Below are positions 10,700-19,895 of a DNA stretch of 52,343 nt, piece by piece. Positions within the stretch are counted from its first letter, which is position 1; each line of letters starts with the position of its first letter. Location of the stretch: positions 1 through 52,343 of the forward strand of contig NW_021832984.1 of NCBI RefSeq assembly GCF_006345805.1, given 5' to 3'. The translations under genes and the position numbers were made by a program. Source of the stretch: Octopus sinensis (Eukaryota). The notes under the pieces are model-generated. The model worked only from the letters and a program-made list of their open reading frames with translations. It ran no database searches and had not been told where the DNA came from.

Positions 10700-10836
10700 T
10701 GGGAATAAATTAAAAATAAAATTAGCGTGCAGAAATGGAATAGTCCAGTTGGATAATAAAAAATTAAATTAAAGAAAAAACTATTGTCTATAAAGTATAC
10801 AATGTAGAGAAAAAAGATTTGAACACATCGAGGAAA
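10700..10836 (+). pseudogene. 5' part of an interrupted Tx1-type ORF1 fragment (insertion host)
   Basis: Translates KEKTIVYKVYNVEKKDL, which aligns with ENKTVTYRTQDKNTNKL of the ORF1 at 12737. Continues at 19606. Confidence 0.6.
10824..10836 (+). repeat. Target-site repeat 1 (CACATCGAGGAAA)
   Basis: Recurs at 12596, 14382 and 19606, at every element junction. Confidence 0.9.
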
Positions 10837-12595
10837 TTTACCCAAGTGTGTTGTTATCTGTGATTAGACGTTGAAATTTTGTTGTGTAAAGTGATTAATA
10901 TCGCGCGAGGCGTTTGCCTCCACGTGTGGAAACCTTCCGAAGAAGGTGAATTGACCCTCTAGTCATGGCGACTTACGCGGGGGTCACGGGAAAGAAAAAT
11001 AATGATTCGTCGATAATCGTGAAGGATGTTTTCTTTGAGAAGAGTAAACTCAAAGAATACGAAAAGCTATTCAAAAGGGAGGGTGATAGCGTGAAGCTGG
11101 TCCCCCCGCGAAAGCAAAGGAGGACAAGGAAACAAACTGTAACGTATAGAACCCAGGACAAAAGTACAAAGAAACTGGCAAGAGTGGAGATAGCAGAGAT
11201 CGAAAAATGTCTGGGAGACATAATGGATAATCGACCTACGTGAGTAGAGGAAAAAAATTTGGTACGGTGGAGGTGAGATGTGCAACGGAAGAAATTGCAG
11301 CCTCACTGGCTACCACTGTTCTAAGAGCGGAAACATTTATAATGTGGCCCTCATACAAGGGAAGAAGAGGGGTCCGGGTTAAAATCCCGAATATACCCCC
11401 AGAAGTAAAAACAGAATGGCTGGCAACAGCTATTCTAGGAGCAGCAGAAGAGGAAGTGGAGGTGGAATCCTTTAAGGAGTCCAACGCAGTAAATTGGAGA
11501 GGATATGGGGTAGAACTGTGTTTGATGGCCACAAAAGAGGACATTGAAAGGTTCCCCTATAGAATAGAAATCGAAGACGAGAAAACCCTCAGTGTAATTG
11601 TAGAGGGAAGAAAGCCAAACTGCTACTTGTGCGGGACAAGGGGGCACATTAAAAAAGAGTGCCCGTTATATGAATTCATGGCGGAGTATGAGAAGGAAAA
11701 TGAAGAAAAGAAGAATACGGTAAATGAAAAAGAAAACATAGAAAAGGAGACAAAACAACAAGAGAAAGGAAATAATAAGTCAACGAAGGAAAAAGAAATA
11801 AAAGAAAAGAAAGAAATAGAACCAAAACAGAGTCAGGAAAAGAAAAAGGAAAAAGAAACAACAGGAAAAAAACAAGAGAGAGAACAGAACCAAACGAAAA
11901 GAAAAGACGGCACACAAAAAGAAAAAGAAAAGGAACATAAAACACGAGAGAAAGAGAGAACAGACAAAGAACCAAAAAGACAAGAGAAGGAAGAAGAAAG
12001 AAAAGAAGGCAAAAAGAGAGAAAGAGAGAAACAAAGAGAGGAGAACAAGGAAGAAATAAGCCCGAAAAGAAAACGAGAGAAAACGTAGGACGGAAACAAG
12101 ATTACTACAAGTTAATAACCTTCCATTTCAGCCCCGAAATGAAGGAATTGACATGTAGTATGGAGGGACATGTGTGGGTCAACAGGATGACTGATCAGTG
12201 GCAGGAGACTGCTCTGATCCCCGAAGAAAGAGTCGCTGAGTTCCTCAGAGCAGCTGAGAGAGTGTAATTTTTACACGTGTTCGAGTGAAGAGCGGCTGCC
12301 TGAGGGCTCAGTGATTGACTTTAGAGACTTGAAAAGTATTATGGAATACGTGTGAGATTGTGAGAGGAGAGAGAAGAAAGAAGAGAAAAAGAAAAAAAAA
12401 ATTGTGAACTATAGGTGACGAAAATGTAACCTCTCGATTCCGGGGATCGAGTGGGCATTGCATCTCATTGTAATATTCTTTCATTTGTCATTTTTATTTT
12501 TATTTTTTTCCCTTCTTGTCATTTCGCTTTCTTATTTTAAGTTCCCCGATTGTATTGTCCCCTCTATGTTCGCCCCTTGTGGGTAGTAATAAAAT
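10837..12595 (+). mobile_element. ORF1-only non-autonomous Tx1-type retroelement, copy 1
   Basis: Single gag-like ORF, no EN/RT. 3' tail shared with the LINE at 14397-19605. Bounded by target repeats. Confidence 0.85.
10965..12354 (+). CDS. ORF1p (N-terminal domain, CCHC zinc knuckle, K/E-rich linker, C-terminal domain), frameshifted in this sequence
   Basis: Start MATYAGVTG; knuckle CYLCGTRGHIKKEC; K/E-rich region. After a frameshift near 12080 it continues ..DYYKLITFHFSPEMKELTC..WQETALIPEERVAEFL. Confidence 0.75.
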
Positions 12596-12608
12596 CACAT
12601 CGAGGAAA
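12596..12608 (+). repeat. Target-site repeat 2 (CACATCGAGGAAA)
   Basis: Direct reading. Confidence 0.9.
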
Positions 12609-14381
12609 TTTACCCAAGTGTGTTGTTATCTGTGATTAGACGTTGAAATTTTGTTGTGTAAAGTGATTAATATCGCGCGAGGCGTTTGCCTCCACGTGTG
12701 GAAACCTTCCGAAGAAGGTGAATTGACCCTCTAGTCATGGCGACTTACGCGGGGGTCACGGGAAAGAAAAATAATGATTCGTCGATAATCGTGAAGGATG
12801 TTTTCTTTGAGAAGAGTAAACTCAAAGAATATGAAAAGCTATTCAAAAGGGAGGGTGATAGCGTGAAGCTAATCCCCCCCGCGAAAGCAAAAGAGGACAA
12901 AGAAAACAAGACTGTAACATATAGAACCCAAGACAAAAATACAAATAAACTGGCAAGAGTGGAGATAGCAGAAATCGAAAAATGTCTGGAAGACATAATG
13001 GGGAAATCGACCTACGTGAGTAGAGGCAAGAAATTTGGTACGGTGGAGGTGAGATGTGCAACGGAAGAAATTGCAGCCTCACTGGCTACCACTGTACTAA
13101 GAGCGGAAACATTTATAATGTGGCCCTCATACAAGGGAAGAAGAGGGGTCCGGGTTAAAATCCCGAATATACCCCCAGAAGTGAAAACAGAATGGCTGGC
13201 AACAGCTATTCTAGGAGCAGCAGAAGAGGAAGTGGAGGTGGAATCCTTTAAGGAGTCCAACGCGATAAACTGGAGAGGATATGGGGTAGAACTGTGTTTG
13301 ATGGCCACAAAAGAGGACATTGAAAGGTTCCCCTACAGAATAGAAATTGAAGATGAGAAAACCCTCAGTGTAATTGTAGAGGGAAGAAAGCCAAACTGCT
13401 ACTTGTGCGGGACAAGGGGGGAACATTAAAAAAGAGTGCCCGTTATACGAATTCGTAGCGGAGTGCGAGCAGGAATTTGAAGAAAGAAGAATACGGTAAA
13501 TGAAAAAGAAAACATAGAAAAGGAAACAAAACAACAAGAGAAAGGAAATAATAAGTCAATGAAGGAAAAGAAATAAAAGAAAAGAAAGAAATAGAACCAA
13601 AACAGAGTCAGGAAAAGAAAAAGGAAAAAGAAACAACAGGAAAAAAACAAGAGAGAGATCAGAATCAAACGAAAAGAAAAGACGGCACACAAAAAGAAAA
13701 AGAAAAGGAACATAAAACACGAGAGAAAGAGAGAACAGACAAAGAACCAAAAGACAAGAGAAGGAAGAAGAAAGAAAAGAAGCAAAAAGAGAGAAAGAGA
13801 GAAACAAAGAGAGGAGAACAAGGAAGAAATAAGCCCGAAAAGAAAAACGAAGGAAAACGTAGGACGGAAACAAGATTACTGCTTCTACAAGTTAGTAACC
13901 TTCCATTTCTGCCCTGGAAATGAAAGAATTAACATGTAATACGGAGGGACATATATGGGTCAACAGGATGACCGATCAGTGGCAGGAGACTGCTCTAATC
14001 CCCGAAGAAAGAGTCGCTGAGTTCCTCAGAGCTGCCGGAGAGAGTGTAATATTTTACACGAGTGTTCGAGTGAGAGAGCGGCTGCCTGAGGGCTCAGTGA
14101 TTGACTTTAGAGAATTGAAAGTTATTATGGAATACGTATAGAATTGTGAGAAGAGAGAGAAGAAAAGAAGAGAAAAAAGAAAATATTGTGAAATATATGT
14201 GACGAAAATGTAACCTCTCGATTCCGGGGATCGAGTGGGCATTTACATCTCATTGTAAATATTCTTTCATATGTCATTTTTTACTATTAATTTTTCCTTT
14301 TCTTGTCATTCGCTTTCTTATTTTAAGTTCCCCGATTGTACTGTCCCATCTATGTTCGCCCCTTGTGGGTAGTAATAAAAT
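12609..14381 (+). mobile_element. ORF1-only non-autonomous Tx1-type retroelement, copy 2
   Basis: Colinear with copy 1, same 5' end, scattered substitutions. Confidence 0.85.
12737..14141 (+). CDS. ORF1p, copy 2 (frameshifted)
   Basis: ORF-track 12737-13429 (230 aa, ends in the zinc knuckle) and 13920-14141 (C-terminal domain). Confidence 0.75.
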
Positions 14382-18900: not shown

Positions 18901-19361
18901 ACAGAGGAGCTCTACCTGTTCGGGATAAACTCGCAAGGCACGGTGGCCAAGACAGTCCGATATGTCCAAGATGCGGGCGGGATAGGAAACCGTCCCGCAC
19001 GCTATTGTTCATTGTCCGGACGTGTCTGCTGTGTGTTTATGCCGAACACCTGTTGTCAGGTACACGAAGAGTACAGCTGTCGACTGAGTCGATTACAAAA
19101 ATTGACCCACCGGATTTCCTCGTGAATGAAGGTAAGTTTCGTTTTCTCGTTGTAGTAGCAATTGCGAAAGAGGTGATATGGAAGACGAGAAAGAAAGGTT
19201 TACAGTCAGGCAAGTTCATCTCCGGCCCTGGTTTGATGAATTATTTCATCTTTCACCTGAAAAGGAAGATAGGGCTGGAGAGAATATGCCTGACTAGGAG
19301 AGTGTATGAAGAACGATGGAAGGATGTAGCACGAAAGTTGCGAGTGAAAGATACAACATAA
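15969..19361 (+). CDS. ORF2p APE endonuclease / reverse transcriptase / C-terminal zinc finger (several frameshifts)
   Basis: Motifs CLNVRGL, VLGDFN, YLDRILI, SDH, GKAPGLDGLP, FRPITLLNTELKILAK, LDQSKAFDRV, SVRQGCPLSPLLY, YADD, LSLKGR, CPRCG. Confidence 0.9.
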
Positions 19362-19605
19362 ATGTAATACAAGCGCAACCAAAAGTATCAGTGGGGAGGC
19401 GGGGCTCGTGGGGTCCGAGCTAAACCCGCACCCACTCCACCCGTAATGTCTTCCGGTCTGTCCCATCATTCGATTTCTGTCCATTTATTGTAATTCATGA
19501 AAATTTTTAAATCCGATTTATTGTAAAAACCCATTCGTTTGTCTGACCCCATCATCAGATTGTATTGTCCCATCTATGTTCGCCCCTTGTGGGTAATAAT
19601 AAAAT

Positions 19606-19895
19606 CACATGGAGGAAAGCACATTCGAAAAGTGTCTTGGTGCGACTATGAAAGGTATCTAATCAGAGGCGGTAAATTCGCCACAATAGAAGCAAGGTTC
19701 GAGTCAACGGAGCGTGCAAGGGAATACTCGACTCGAACTTGCAAAGTGGAAATATTTTATTTTTACGTAGGACGTCCCGGATAAAAATTAAAAATATCCA
19801 CCCTGAAGTAGAGGTAGGCTGGATTATAGCCACACTTCTATACAAGAGGGAGGACAAGATACAATTGATCGAAATTACAAGAGACGGGCTAACAA
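19606..19895 (+). pseudogene. 3' part of the interrupted Tx1-type ORF1 fragment (starts with target repeat 4)
   Basis: HMEESTFEKCLG / YLIRGGKFATIEARFESTERA / RIKIKNIHPEVEVGWIIATLL align with EIAEIEKCL / YVSRGKKFGTVEVRCATEEIA / RVKIPNIPPEVKTEWLATAIL. Confidence 0.8.

What the first reader, a model, noticed from the sequence alone, without database searches (positions are those of the whole stretch)
10824..19620. Head-to-tail array of three retroelements at one 13-15 bp site
Seen: CACAT[C/G]GAGGAAA occurs at 10824, 12596, 14382 and 19606, each time exactly at an element boundary. All three 3' ends abut it at the same base (..AATAAAAT|CACAT) with no poly(A). Copies 1 and 2 differ by many substitutions, which argues against an assembly duplication. 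Known: Tx1-clade elements are often sequence-specific. I do not recognise this target as an snRNA, tRNA or rRNA.
Basis: partly seen in the sequence, partly recalled or inferred. Interest (0 to 1): 0.85.

Follow-up and report, generated by a model that had tools for sequence, protein, structure and literature searches.

The report
Octopus LINEs stacking inside a Helitron
In an octopus genome, one complete jumping gene and its shorter partners sit stacked head to tail at one exact spot inside many separate copies of another mobile element, likely because each new copy inserts at a short sequence that the previous insertion duplicated.

Summary
The array is real and is one case of a genome-wide pattern. 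The motif is neither an RNA gene nor the universal target. It is a site inside a 1.16-kb non-autonomous Helitron-like element: 1,092 empty copies, at least 31 filled. Units 1 and 2 are 1.8-kb ORF1-only elements; unit 3 is a 5.2-kb L1/Tx1-group LINE sharing their last 48 nt. Filled and empty Helitrons interleave on a tree, and hosts differ by at least 3.1% while resident LINEs differ by about 1%, so insertions were independent. Other arrays mix up to four families and reach 16 units. The spacer is a target-site duplication in 14 of 23 Helitron-abutting units and a head brought by the element in 9. Units 1 and 2 come from different lineages. Four copies elsewhere are A-to-G hypermutated, pointing to RNA intermediates. 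Best reading: repeated target-primed insertion, as known for R1 tandems and crocodilian Tx1-Mar/SINEU-3. New here: the Helitron target, ORF1-only partners under purifying selection, and the travelling head. The scan noted a similar Tx1 array system in another genome (e1-7857660). No long reads span this locus.

The parts
10139..10823 (+). 5' part of the host: non-autonomous Helitron-like element (starts TC after A; TCTG microsatellite; internal ~150-bp duplication)
   Evidence: contiguous with 19606 in empty copies
10824..10836 (+). spacer 1, CACATCGAGGAAA (target duplication / 5' head of unit A1)
10837..12595 (+). unit A1: ORF1-only non-autonomous element; ORF1 from ATG 10965, frameshifted in this copy; zinc knuckle at about 11618-11665; first ~210-290 nt match A2, the rest a different lineage
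12548..12595 (+). 48-nt tail shared with the autonomous LINE (96%), no poly(A)
12596..12608 (+). spacer 2, CACATCGAGGAAA
12609..14381 (+). unit A2: second ORF1-only copy, ORF1 from ATG 12737, frameshifted; tail 14334-14381
14382..14396 (+). spacer 3, CACATGGAGGAAAGC: 15-nt duplication of the Helitron site
14397..19605 (+). unit B: autonomous-type L1/Tx1-group LINE; ORF1 from 14610, ORF2 15969-19361 (APE endonuclease, RT, zf-RVT), several frameshifts in this copy; tail 19558-19605
19606..20076 (+). 3' part of the host Helitron-like element: target site, relic of a Tx1-type ORF1 (to about 19890), hairpin 20047-20065, end CTAG before T
19890..19905 (+). second site in the same Helitron (ATTCCAGTC) whose sequence recurs as the spacer of arrays of other subfamilies; empty here
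   Evidence: reading as a second target is inferred

Best explanation
A Tx1-type LINE and ORF1-only partners that share its 48-nt tail sit in head-to-tail arrays at one site inside many independent copies of a non-autonomous Helitron-like element, and they likely got there by repeated target-primed reverse transcription at that site. Shown: the empty site, the unit anatomy, independent hosts, mixed arrays. Inferred steps: (1) the LINE's ORF2 protein binds the shared tail and nicks the bottom strand at ..TTGAAC|ACATG; (2) the top strand is cut about 12-17 nt downstream, so the site is duplicated and survives at the 5' end of the new copy, where the next element inserts; (3) transcripts start at the spacer, so the cDNA end carries a target-like head that anneals to the top-strand overhang; either the target version or the element's own version is kept, which would explain mosaic spacers, heads shared across families within an array, and the mostly full-length units; (4) ORF1-only elements make their own ORF1 protein and borrow ORF2. 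Runs of near-identical neighbours may additionally have grown by local duplication.
For: Empty site: 18 of 30 motif loci are empty Helitron sites, 1,092 genome-wide, and the joint is present in short-read contigs of 3 of 4 runs laid. Enrichment: at least 31 of 261 tails abut the site (167 of 261 were listed), an estimated 180- to 860-fold over a 5-6-mer target. Independence: 21 filled and 18 empty Helitrons need 13 label changes against 13.1 shuffled; filled pairs differ by 3.1% at least, median 6.0%, while 17 of 20 full-length B copies have a neighbour within 0.4-1.1%; 15 different compositions among 20 filled loci; locus-specific site variants recur on both sides (CACCTG in L141, CACATA in L146). 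Full 16-17 nt duplication beside a 5'-truncated copy at a non-Helitron site (C3:41.14 Mb). Spacer equals the site in 14 of 23 abutting units. One head variant is shared by A, D and B units within an array (C7:96.7, C3:117.9, C3:72.15 Mb) and one A lineage has different heads at different loci. Units A1 and A2 differ by 4.7% but each is within 0.8-1.3% of a copy elsewhere. A-to-G hypermutated single units beside unedited neighbours. ORF1 dN/dS 0.08-0.14 in most pairs among intact A and D copies. Same mechanism described for R1 tandems (PMC2718515) and SINEU-3 (PMC4494074).
Against: No long read spans this array; short-read contigs cannot. In 10 of 39 adjacent A-A pairs the neighbour is closer than any copy elsewhere, which local duplication explains as well. 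Dispersed copies share only 4-6 nt with the site, so how the Helitron site is singled out is not shown. Two dispersed copies show no clear or only 4-nt duplication (C2:31.1 and 31.6 Mb). Three arrays share a head, an A lineage and the order A..D..(B), which could mean block transfer. Tx1 placement rests on unnamed relatives, not on a named reference. Transcription start and expression were not shown.
Confidence: 0.8

Rival explanations
1. One or a few founder insertions were copied around the genome as passengers of the Helitron, and arrays then changed by recombination at the spacers.
For: The host is a mobile Helitron-like element with over 1,000 copies; two loci share an upstream variant (GATTTTCA) and a head.
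Against: Filled hosts do not cluster (13 changes vs 13.1 shuffled) and differ by at least 3.1%, more than their resident B copies (about 1%); the 3'-most unit is A, B or D at different loci. The tree is weakly resolved (1 of 36 branches starred), so the distances carry this test.
Confidence: 0.05
2. Targeting gives only singles or dimers; long arrays arise mainly by unequal exchange or local duplication of units, or by retrotransposition of multi-unit read-through transcripts.
For: Runs of like units (nine D, six A) and 10 of 39 adjacent A pairs that are each other's closest relatives; three arrays with similar order and head; expansion of TE dimers is described (10.1101/158386).
Against: Cannot create A-D, D-B or A-B junctions at the same base; in 10 of 39 pairs the neighbour is at least twice as distant as a copy elsewhere; hypermutation is confined to single units; in this window all three units are of different origin.
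Confidence: 0.2
3. Target choice is steered by the RNA: read-through transcripts end in the spacer, which pairs with the nicked strand, so each lineage returns to the kind of site its donor sits in; the endonuclease itself is only weakly specific.
For: No poly(A) and a fixed 3' junction; different subfamilies go with different spacers and hosts (AACTGAATACTC in a second repeat, ATTCCAGTC at a second Helitron site); dispersed sites match the first 4-6 nt of the spacer; co-transcribed target sequence is known to strengthen specificity in R1/R2 (PMC4494074, PMC2718515 passages).
Against: No RNA data on transcript ends; A units are found in both hosts; diverged endonucleases of the subfamilies would explain the same pattern. 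This rival differs from the best explanation only in what selects the site.
Confidence: 0.3
4. The array in this window is an assembly artefact.
For: The window is a whole small unplaced contig (C9455); frequent single-base indels; A1's first ~210 nt are identical to A2's although the rest differs; one array appears twice 112 kb apart on C7.
Against: A1 and A2 belong to different lineages and B to a different family; the Helitron halves join as in empty copies; about 30 other loci have the same anatomy.
Confidence: 0.03

Closest known systems
Crocodilian Tx1-Mar LINEs and SINEU-3 in Mariner-N4_AMi (Kojima 2015, PMC4494074; sections 14 and 15 read, other passages seen)
   Same: Tx1-type LINE plus non-autonomous partner preferring one site in a non-autonomous DNA transposon; tandem copies sandwiching a 16-nt duplication; hitchhiking excluded.
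   Different: Target here is Helitron-like (the word Helitron does not occur in that paper); partners are 1.7-1.9 kb protein-coding ORF1-only elements, not SINEs; no poly(A); arrays of up to 16 units of mixed families; travelling head.
Tx1L of Xenopus in the piggyBac-type Tx1D (as summarised in PMC4494074, passage)
   Same: Tx1 LINE targeting a non-autonomous DNA transposon.
   Different: Different host class; preference here is weaker (many dispersed copies); no named Tx1L sequence was available for comparison.
R1 tandem arrays in Drosophila 28S genes (PMC2718515, passages)
   Same: Arrays separated by a 14-bp duplication, formed by insertion into the duplication at the 5' end; melanogaster-type transcripts carry target sequence that anneals at the 5' junction and is carried to off-target sites.
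   Different: Other clade and target; single family; there the carried sequence lies upstream of the nick, here it is the duplicated spacer itself.
HAL1 (half-L1) ORF1-only elements (PMC5753468, passage)
   Same: Non-autonomous L1-group derivative encoding only ORF1.
   Different: Described from mammals; here the ORF1 is far from the partner's ORF1 (pN about 0.42), only the tail is shared, and the elements are target-directed.
HeT-A/TART/TAHRE telomeric arrays (PMC5537684, passages)
   Same: Head-to-tail mixed arrays of a Gag-only element with conserved Gag and RT-bearing partners.
   Different: Arrays here are interstitial, inside a Helitron, separated by a duplication, without poly(A); no evidence for a telomeric role or for ORF1-driven targeting.

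Membership tests
Tx1 clade (L1 group) non-LTR retrotransposon, unit B | ORF1 with zinc knuckle plus ORF2 with APE endonuclease, RT and C-terminal zinc motif | tested here: met
   Pfam Exo_endo_phos, RVT_1, zf-RVT; intact 1,132-aa ORF2 in another copy; CX2CX4HX4C seen in B ORF1
Tx1 clade (L1 group) non-LTR retrotransposon, unit B | RT and endonuclease closest to L1 group among solved proteins | tested here: met
   Human L1 ORF2 E 2e-33 ahead of R2 E 2e-24; L1 endonucleases are the top hits
Tx1 clade (L1 group) non-LTR retrotransposon, unit B | RT phylogeny within Tx1 against named references | tested here: inconclusive
   No named Tx1 sequence obtained. Proxy: B lies on the 64-row side (SH-aLRT 98) with unnamed elements next to U2 (5), 5S (2) and U1 (1) genes, in its own 9-row lineage; midpoint root, long branches flagged
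Tx1 clade (L1 group) non-LTR retrotransposon, unit B | Target preference with target-site duplication | tested here: met
   At least 31 of 261 tails at one site; 12-17 nt duplications. Kojima's criterion (over 20% of flanks) was not computed on array ends; 12% of all tails is a lower bound
Keno / Mutsu / Dewa (snRNA, 5S, tRNA-targeting Tx1 families) | Insertion in or beside a small RNA gene | tested here: not met
   No Rfam match at the junctions; B is outside the U2 and 5S groups in the tree
HAL1-like ORF1-only non-autonomous LINE, units A1/A2 | ORF1 only, no ORF2, 3' tail shared with an autonomous partner | tested here: met
   1.77-1.79 kb, zf-CCHC, last 48 nt 96% identical to B; 466-469 aa ORF intact in 10 of 71 copies
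HAL1-like ORF1-only non-autonomous LINE, units A1/A2 | Derived by internal deletion from its present partner | tested here: not met
   ORF1 of A and B are deeply diverged (pN about 0.42, synonymous sites saturated); the parent LINE of A was not found
Non-autonomous Helitron, host repeat | 5' TC, 3' hairpin plus CTRR, insertion between A and T without duplication, unrelated flanks | tested here: met
   termini and varied flanks in 18 empty and 24 filled copies, with one or both ends recovered in most
Non-autonomous Helitron, host repeat | An autonomous Rep/helicase partner with the same termini | not tested
   No search was run for it
HeT-A-like telomeric retrotransposon | Telomeric location, end-to-end addition without target duplication | tested here: not met
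   Arrays lie deep inside chromosome-scale contigs, flanked by Helitron halves

The most novel reading that the evidence does not exclude
A self-seeding targeting system: the spacer is written into the element's RNA at both ends, so each lineage pairs with and returns to the site its donor occupies, heals its 5' end on the resident copy, and plants a new landing pad when it lands elsewhere; long-lived ORF1-only partners under purifying selection take part in this, as HeT-A does at telomeres, using a Helitron that itself carries a captured Tx1 ORF1 relic as the platform.
Probability: 0.25. Interest if true: 0.75.

Novelty: new variant of a known kind. Interest (0 to 1): 0.52.

Why it matters
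It adds a Helitron to the hosts targeted by Tx1-type LINEs and shows protein-coding ORF1-only partners building long mixed interstitial arrays with them. Because about 30 independent arrays keep every junction, they record how 5' junctions form (target copy versus carried head) and make testable whether endonuclease or RNA pairing picks the site, which bears on site-specific insertion tools built from such elements. The A-to-G hypermutated copies suggest that octopus RNA editing has left marks in germline DNA through retrotransposition. The basic pattern (Tx1 targeting another transposon, tandems around a duplication) is already in print, which caps the surprise.

Tried and rejected
Small-RNA target: Rfam scan of 1-36500 gave only microsatellite-driven miRNA hits below gathering score. 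Structured tail or 5' ribozyme: six junction/UTR folds gave z from -1.2 to +1.8, nothing notable; Rfam found none. Motif as the 5' end of a fourth element: rejected, it lies inside an ORF1 relic within the Helitron; a first tblastx at E 1e-3 missed this homology, tblastn without filters found it. Origin of the GGCTCCAAG head: 257 genomic matches vs 34 control; of 20 inspected, 5 lie in another repeat that begins ACACGGCTCCAAGC, 1 is an array head, the rest are a SINE-like repeat or unrelated: unresolved. Expression: no RNA holder listed; one run guessed to be RNA has low-depth contigs over all units, not taken as evidence. Naming the clade through protein databases and the Atlas gave no Tx1 label. 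Metagenome relatives were 30-48% identical on short contigs and say nothing on arrays. General 5'-end sharing between diverged neighbours: 5 of 13 adjacent pairs vs 11 of 1,469 cross-locus pairs have at most one difference in the first 230 nt, but three of the five may be same-lineage copies with errors in the A-rich part, so only the window pair is relied on. The 5' junctions of most dispersed copies could not be read, so the target consensus upstream of the nick stays open. Literature: 0 papers for Tx1 + target preference + Helitron and for cephalopod + LINE + tandem arrays + Tx1; listings showed no title on this system; Repbase entries and subscription papers are not searchable here.
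Full report
Observation. The motif CACATSGAGGAAA occurs exactly four times in the window, at 10824, 12596, 14382 and 19606. Three tails end in TAATAAAAT directly before it, with no poly(A). A1 (10824-12595) and A2 (12596-14381) differ by 68 substitutions and 34 gap columns; both share with B (14382-19605) only the last 48 nt at 96% and one weak 53-nt patch. The window is a whole contig, C9455, of a 2.72-Gb genome; the A ORF1 is 99% identical over 60% of the query to a protein named from Octopus vulgaris, so the organism is an octopus.

The units. B encodes an APE endonuclease, RT and zf-RVT; its copy here is frameshifted, but another copy has an unbroken 1,132-aa ORF2. 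Its best solved relatives are human L1 ORF2 and L1 endonuclease. No named Tx1 reference could be obtained. As a proxy, of 40 metagenome relatives scanned, 5 carry U2, 2 carry 5S and 1 carries U1 matches, and B falls on the same side of a 91-row RT tree as these, in its own lineage. A1 and A2 encode only an ORF1 with a zinc knuckle; 10 of 71 A copies keep a 462-469 aa frame. Further ORF1-only families (D, E, X) and a second full LINE (B2) occur in other arrays. Over the first 245 codons dN/dS is 0.08-0.12 among three ordinary A copies, 0.11 between two D copies and 0.13-0.14 between A and D at dS about 1.3; pairs with the hypermutated copy give 0.18-0.31. The ORF1-only design is therefore old and its protein is maintained (inference).

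The target. The motif has 693 genomic matches against 89 for the reversed control. Of 30 inspected, 18 are an empty site in one repeat, 3 follow a tail, 1 joins the repeat to an element head and 8 are unrelated. In the empty form the sequence before 10824 runs straight into the sequence from 19606. A 31-nt empty-site pattern has 1,092 matches at up to 2 mismatches, 0 in the control, and short-read contigs of three of four runs hold such joints. The repeat spans 10139-20076, 1,156 nt when empty, starts TC after A, ends in a hairpin and CTAG before T, and has varied flanks: a non-autonomous Helitron by its termini (criteria recalled; no autonomous partner sought). The site lies inside a relic of a Tx1-type ORF1 (43% over 76 aa, E 4e-18). 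Rfam finds no RNA gene there.

Genome-wide pattern. The 31-nt tail has 212 exact copies; an 18-nt version has 261, of which 167 were listed with their flanks; 30 of the 67 and 1 of the 100 listed abut the Helitron site, one of them possibly a duplicate locus. Against the estimated number of ACATG or ACATGG sites this is about 860- or 180-fold enrichment (background from 83 kb only). All 20 such loci fetched show the Helitron's 3' part and 18 also its 5' part within 10 kb; they hold 15 different unit compositions. Longer arrays reach 10 units (25 kb) and at least 16 units. Other tails are followed by array-internal spacers, by a second multicopy composite repeat with 56 matches, or by unique DNA that mostly begins ACNTG.

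Independent insertion. On a tree of 21 filled and 18 empty Helitrons the label needs 13 changes against 13.1 shuffled; the tree is poorly resolved, but filled pairs differ by 3.1% at least, whereas 17 of 20 full-length B copies have a neighbour within 0.4-1.1%. In the window A1 and A2 differ by 4.7% yet are 0.8% and 1.3% from copies at other loci. Among 39 adjacent A pairs, 10 are each other's closest relatives and 10 are at least twice as distant as a copy elsewhere, so both sequential insertion and local growth are possible. Two of 71 A copies, 1 of 31 D copies and 1 of 13 diverged B pieces carry 45-160 A-to-G changes on the sense strand with few others; 0 of 20 full-length B copies do. In the A copies 5' G is depleted (3% vs 30%) and 3' G enriched (42% vs 27%). 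This is the pattern of ADAR editing (neighbour preference recalled; cluster hallmark in PMC2873906 passages), and the neighbouring units are unedited, which points to entry one unit at a time through RNA. Raw reads were not available to exclude an assembly cause.

The spacer. Of 23 units that abut the Helitron and could be scored, 14 have a 5' spacer equal to the site (at most one mismatch in 12 nt; one scored after a one-base shift) and 9 have a different head such as GGCTCCAAG, GTCGGAAA or GGCGGAAA, sharing only the first few bases. A 5'-truncated copy at a unique site has a plain 16-17 nt duplication, and a lone A at a non-Helitron site carries CACATGGAGGAAA at its 5' end. Within arrays one head is often shared by A, D and B units, and one A lineage bears different heads at different loci. 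In the window the A heads have C at position 6, which the site lacks, and A1's first ~210-290 nt match A2 while the rest belongs to another lineage. I infer that transcripts begin at the spacer, that the cDNA end anneals to the top-strand overhang or to the resident unit, and that either version is kept.

Comparison. Kojima 2015 (PMC4494074; sections 14 and 15 read, passages) describes Tx1-Mar and SINEU-3 targeting a Mariner, with tandems around a duplication. Stage and Eickbush 2009 (PMC2718515; passages) describe R1 tandems formed at the 5' duplication and target sequence carried on transcripts. McGurk and Barbash (10.1101/158386; passages) give the general double-insertion model. HAL1 (PMC5753468; passage) and HeT-A (PMC5537684; passages) are ORF1-only precedents; PMC3747384 (passages) covers shared tails. 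The O. vulgaris repeat annotation (PMC13282606; passages) lists 13 recently active L1-Tx1 families and, in the passages seen, nothing on targets; its supplements were not read. Trypanosome ingi/RIME tandems at RHS sites are a recalled analogue (listing only). Searches returned no paper; Repbase could not be checked.

Verdict. Real, genome-wide, and explained in outline by known mechanisms. New variant: Helitron host, several ORF1-only partners under selection, long mixed arrays, a travelling head and edited copies. Open: what selects the site, where transcripts start, and long-read confirmation.

Noticed in passing
L149 (A unit), L158 (5'-most A unit), L151 (D unit), G000:C3 near 72.168 Mb (B piece): Genomic copies with 45-160 sense-strand A-to-G changes and ADAR-like neighbour bias, next to unedited units; likely RNA editing fixed in DNA by retrotransposition.
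   Followed up: partly
L181-L192; G000:C3:35.93 Mb, C5:32.52 Mb: A second multicopy composite repeat (RTE-like fragment, Mariner-like piece; 56 matches) has a zone of about 100 bp into which related Tx1-type families insert at several positions; 3 of 12 loci have a tail just upstream. Its nature was not resolved.
   Followed up: partly
window 10817 joined to 19888/19889: Short-read contigs show a Helitron variant lacking about 300 bp of the ORF1 relic; arrays with ATTCCAGTC-like spacers sit in what looks like this variant.
   Followed up: partly
L090, L134; L175/L176 region: A SINE-like repeat ends in a tail resembling the LINE's (..GCCCCTTGTGGGTAGTAAAGAAAT), so it may use the same enzymes.
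   Followed up: no
G000:C7:96.72-96.74 Mb and 96.83-96.85 Mb; C3:72.16 and 72.27 Mb: Arrays recur about 112 kb apart with matching spacing: segmental duplication or assembly duplicate.
   Followed up: no
window 15584-18984: Short-read contigs carry an extra base at eight places in unit B, so some frameshifts in this copy may be assembly errors.
   Followed up: no
window 36446-52343: 26-bp satellite, about 612 copies at 93% identity, running to the contig end.
   Followed up: no
window 1690-4080 (-) and 35256-35789 (-): Fragments of other LINEs (endonuclease and RT domains) unrelated to the array at DNA level.
   Followed up: no
L193-L196, L210: A repeat found in inverted pairs 1.2-3.9 kb apart contains ACACGGCTCCAAGC, matching one alien head over 14 nt; possible source of that head.
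   Followed up: partly
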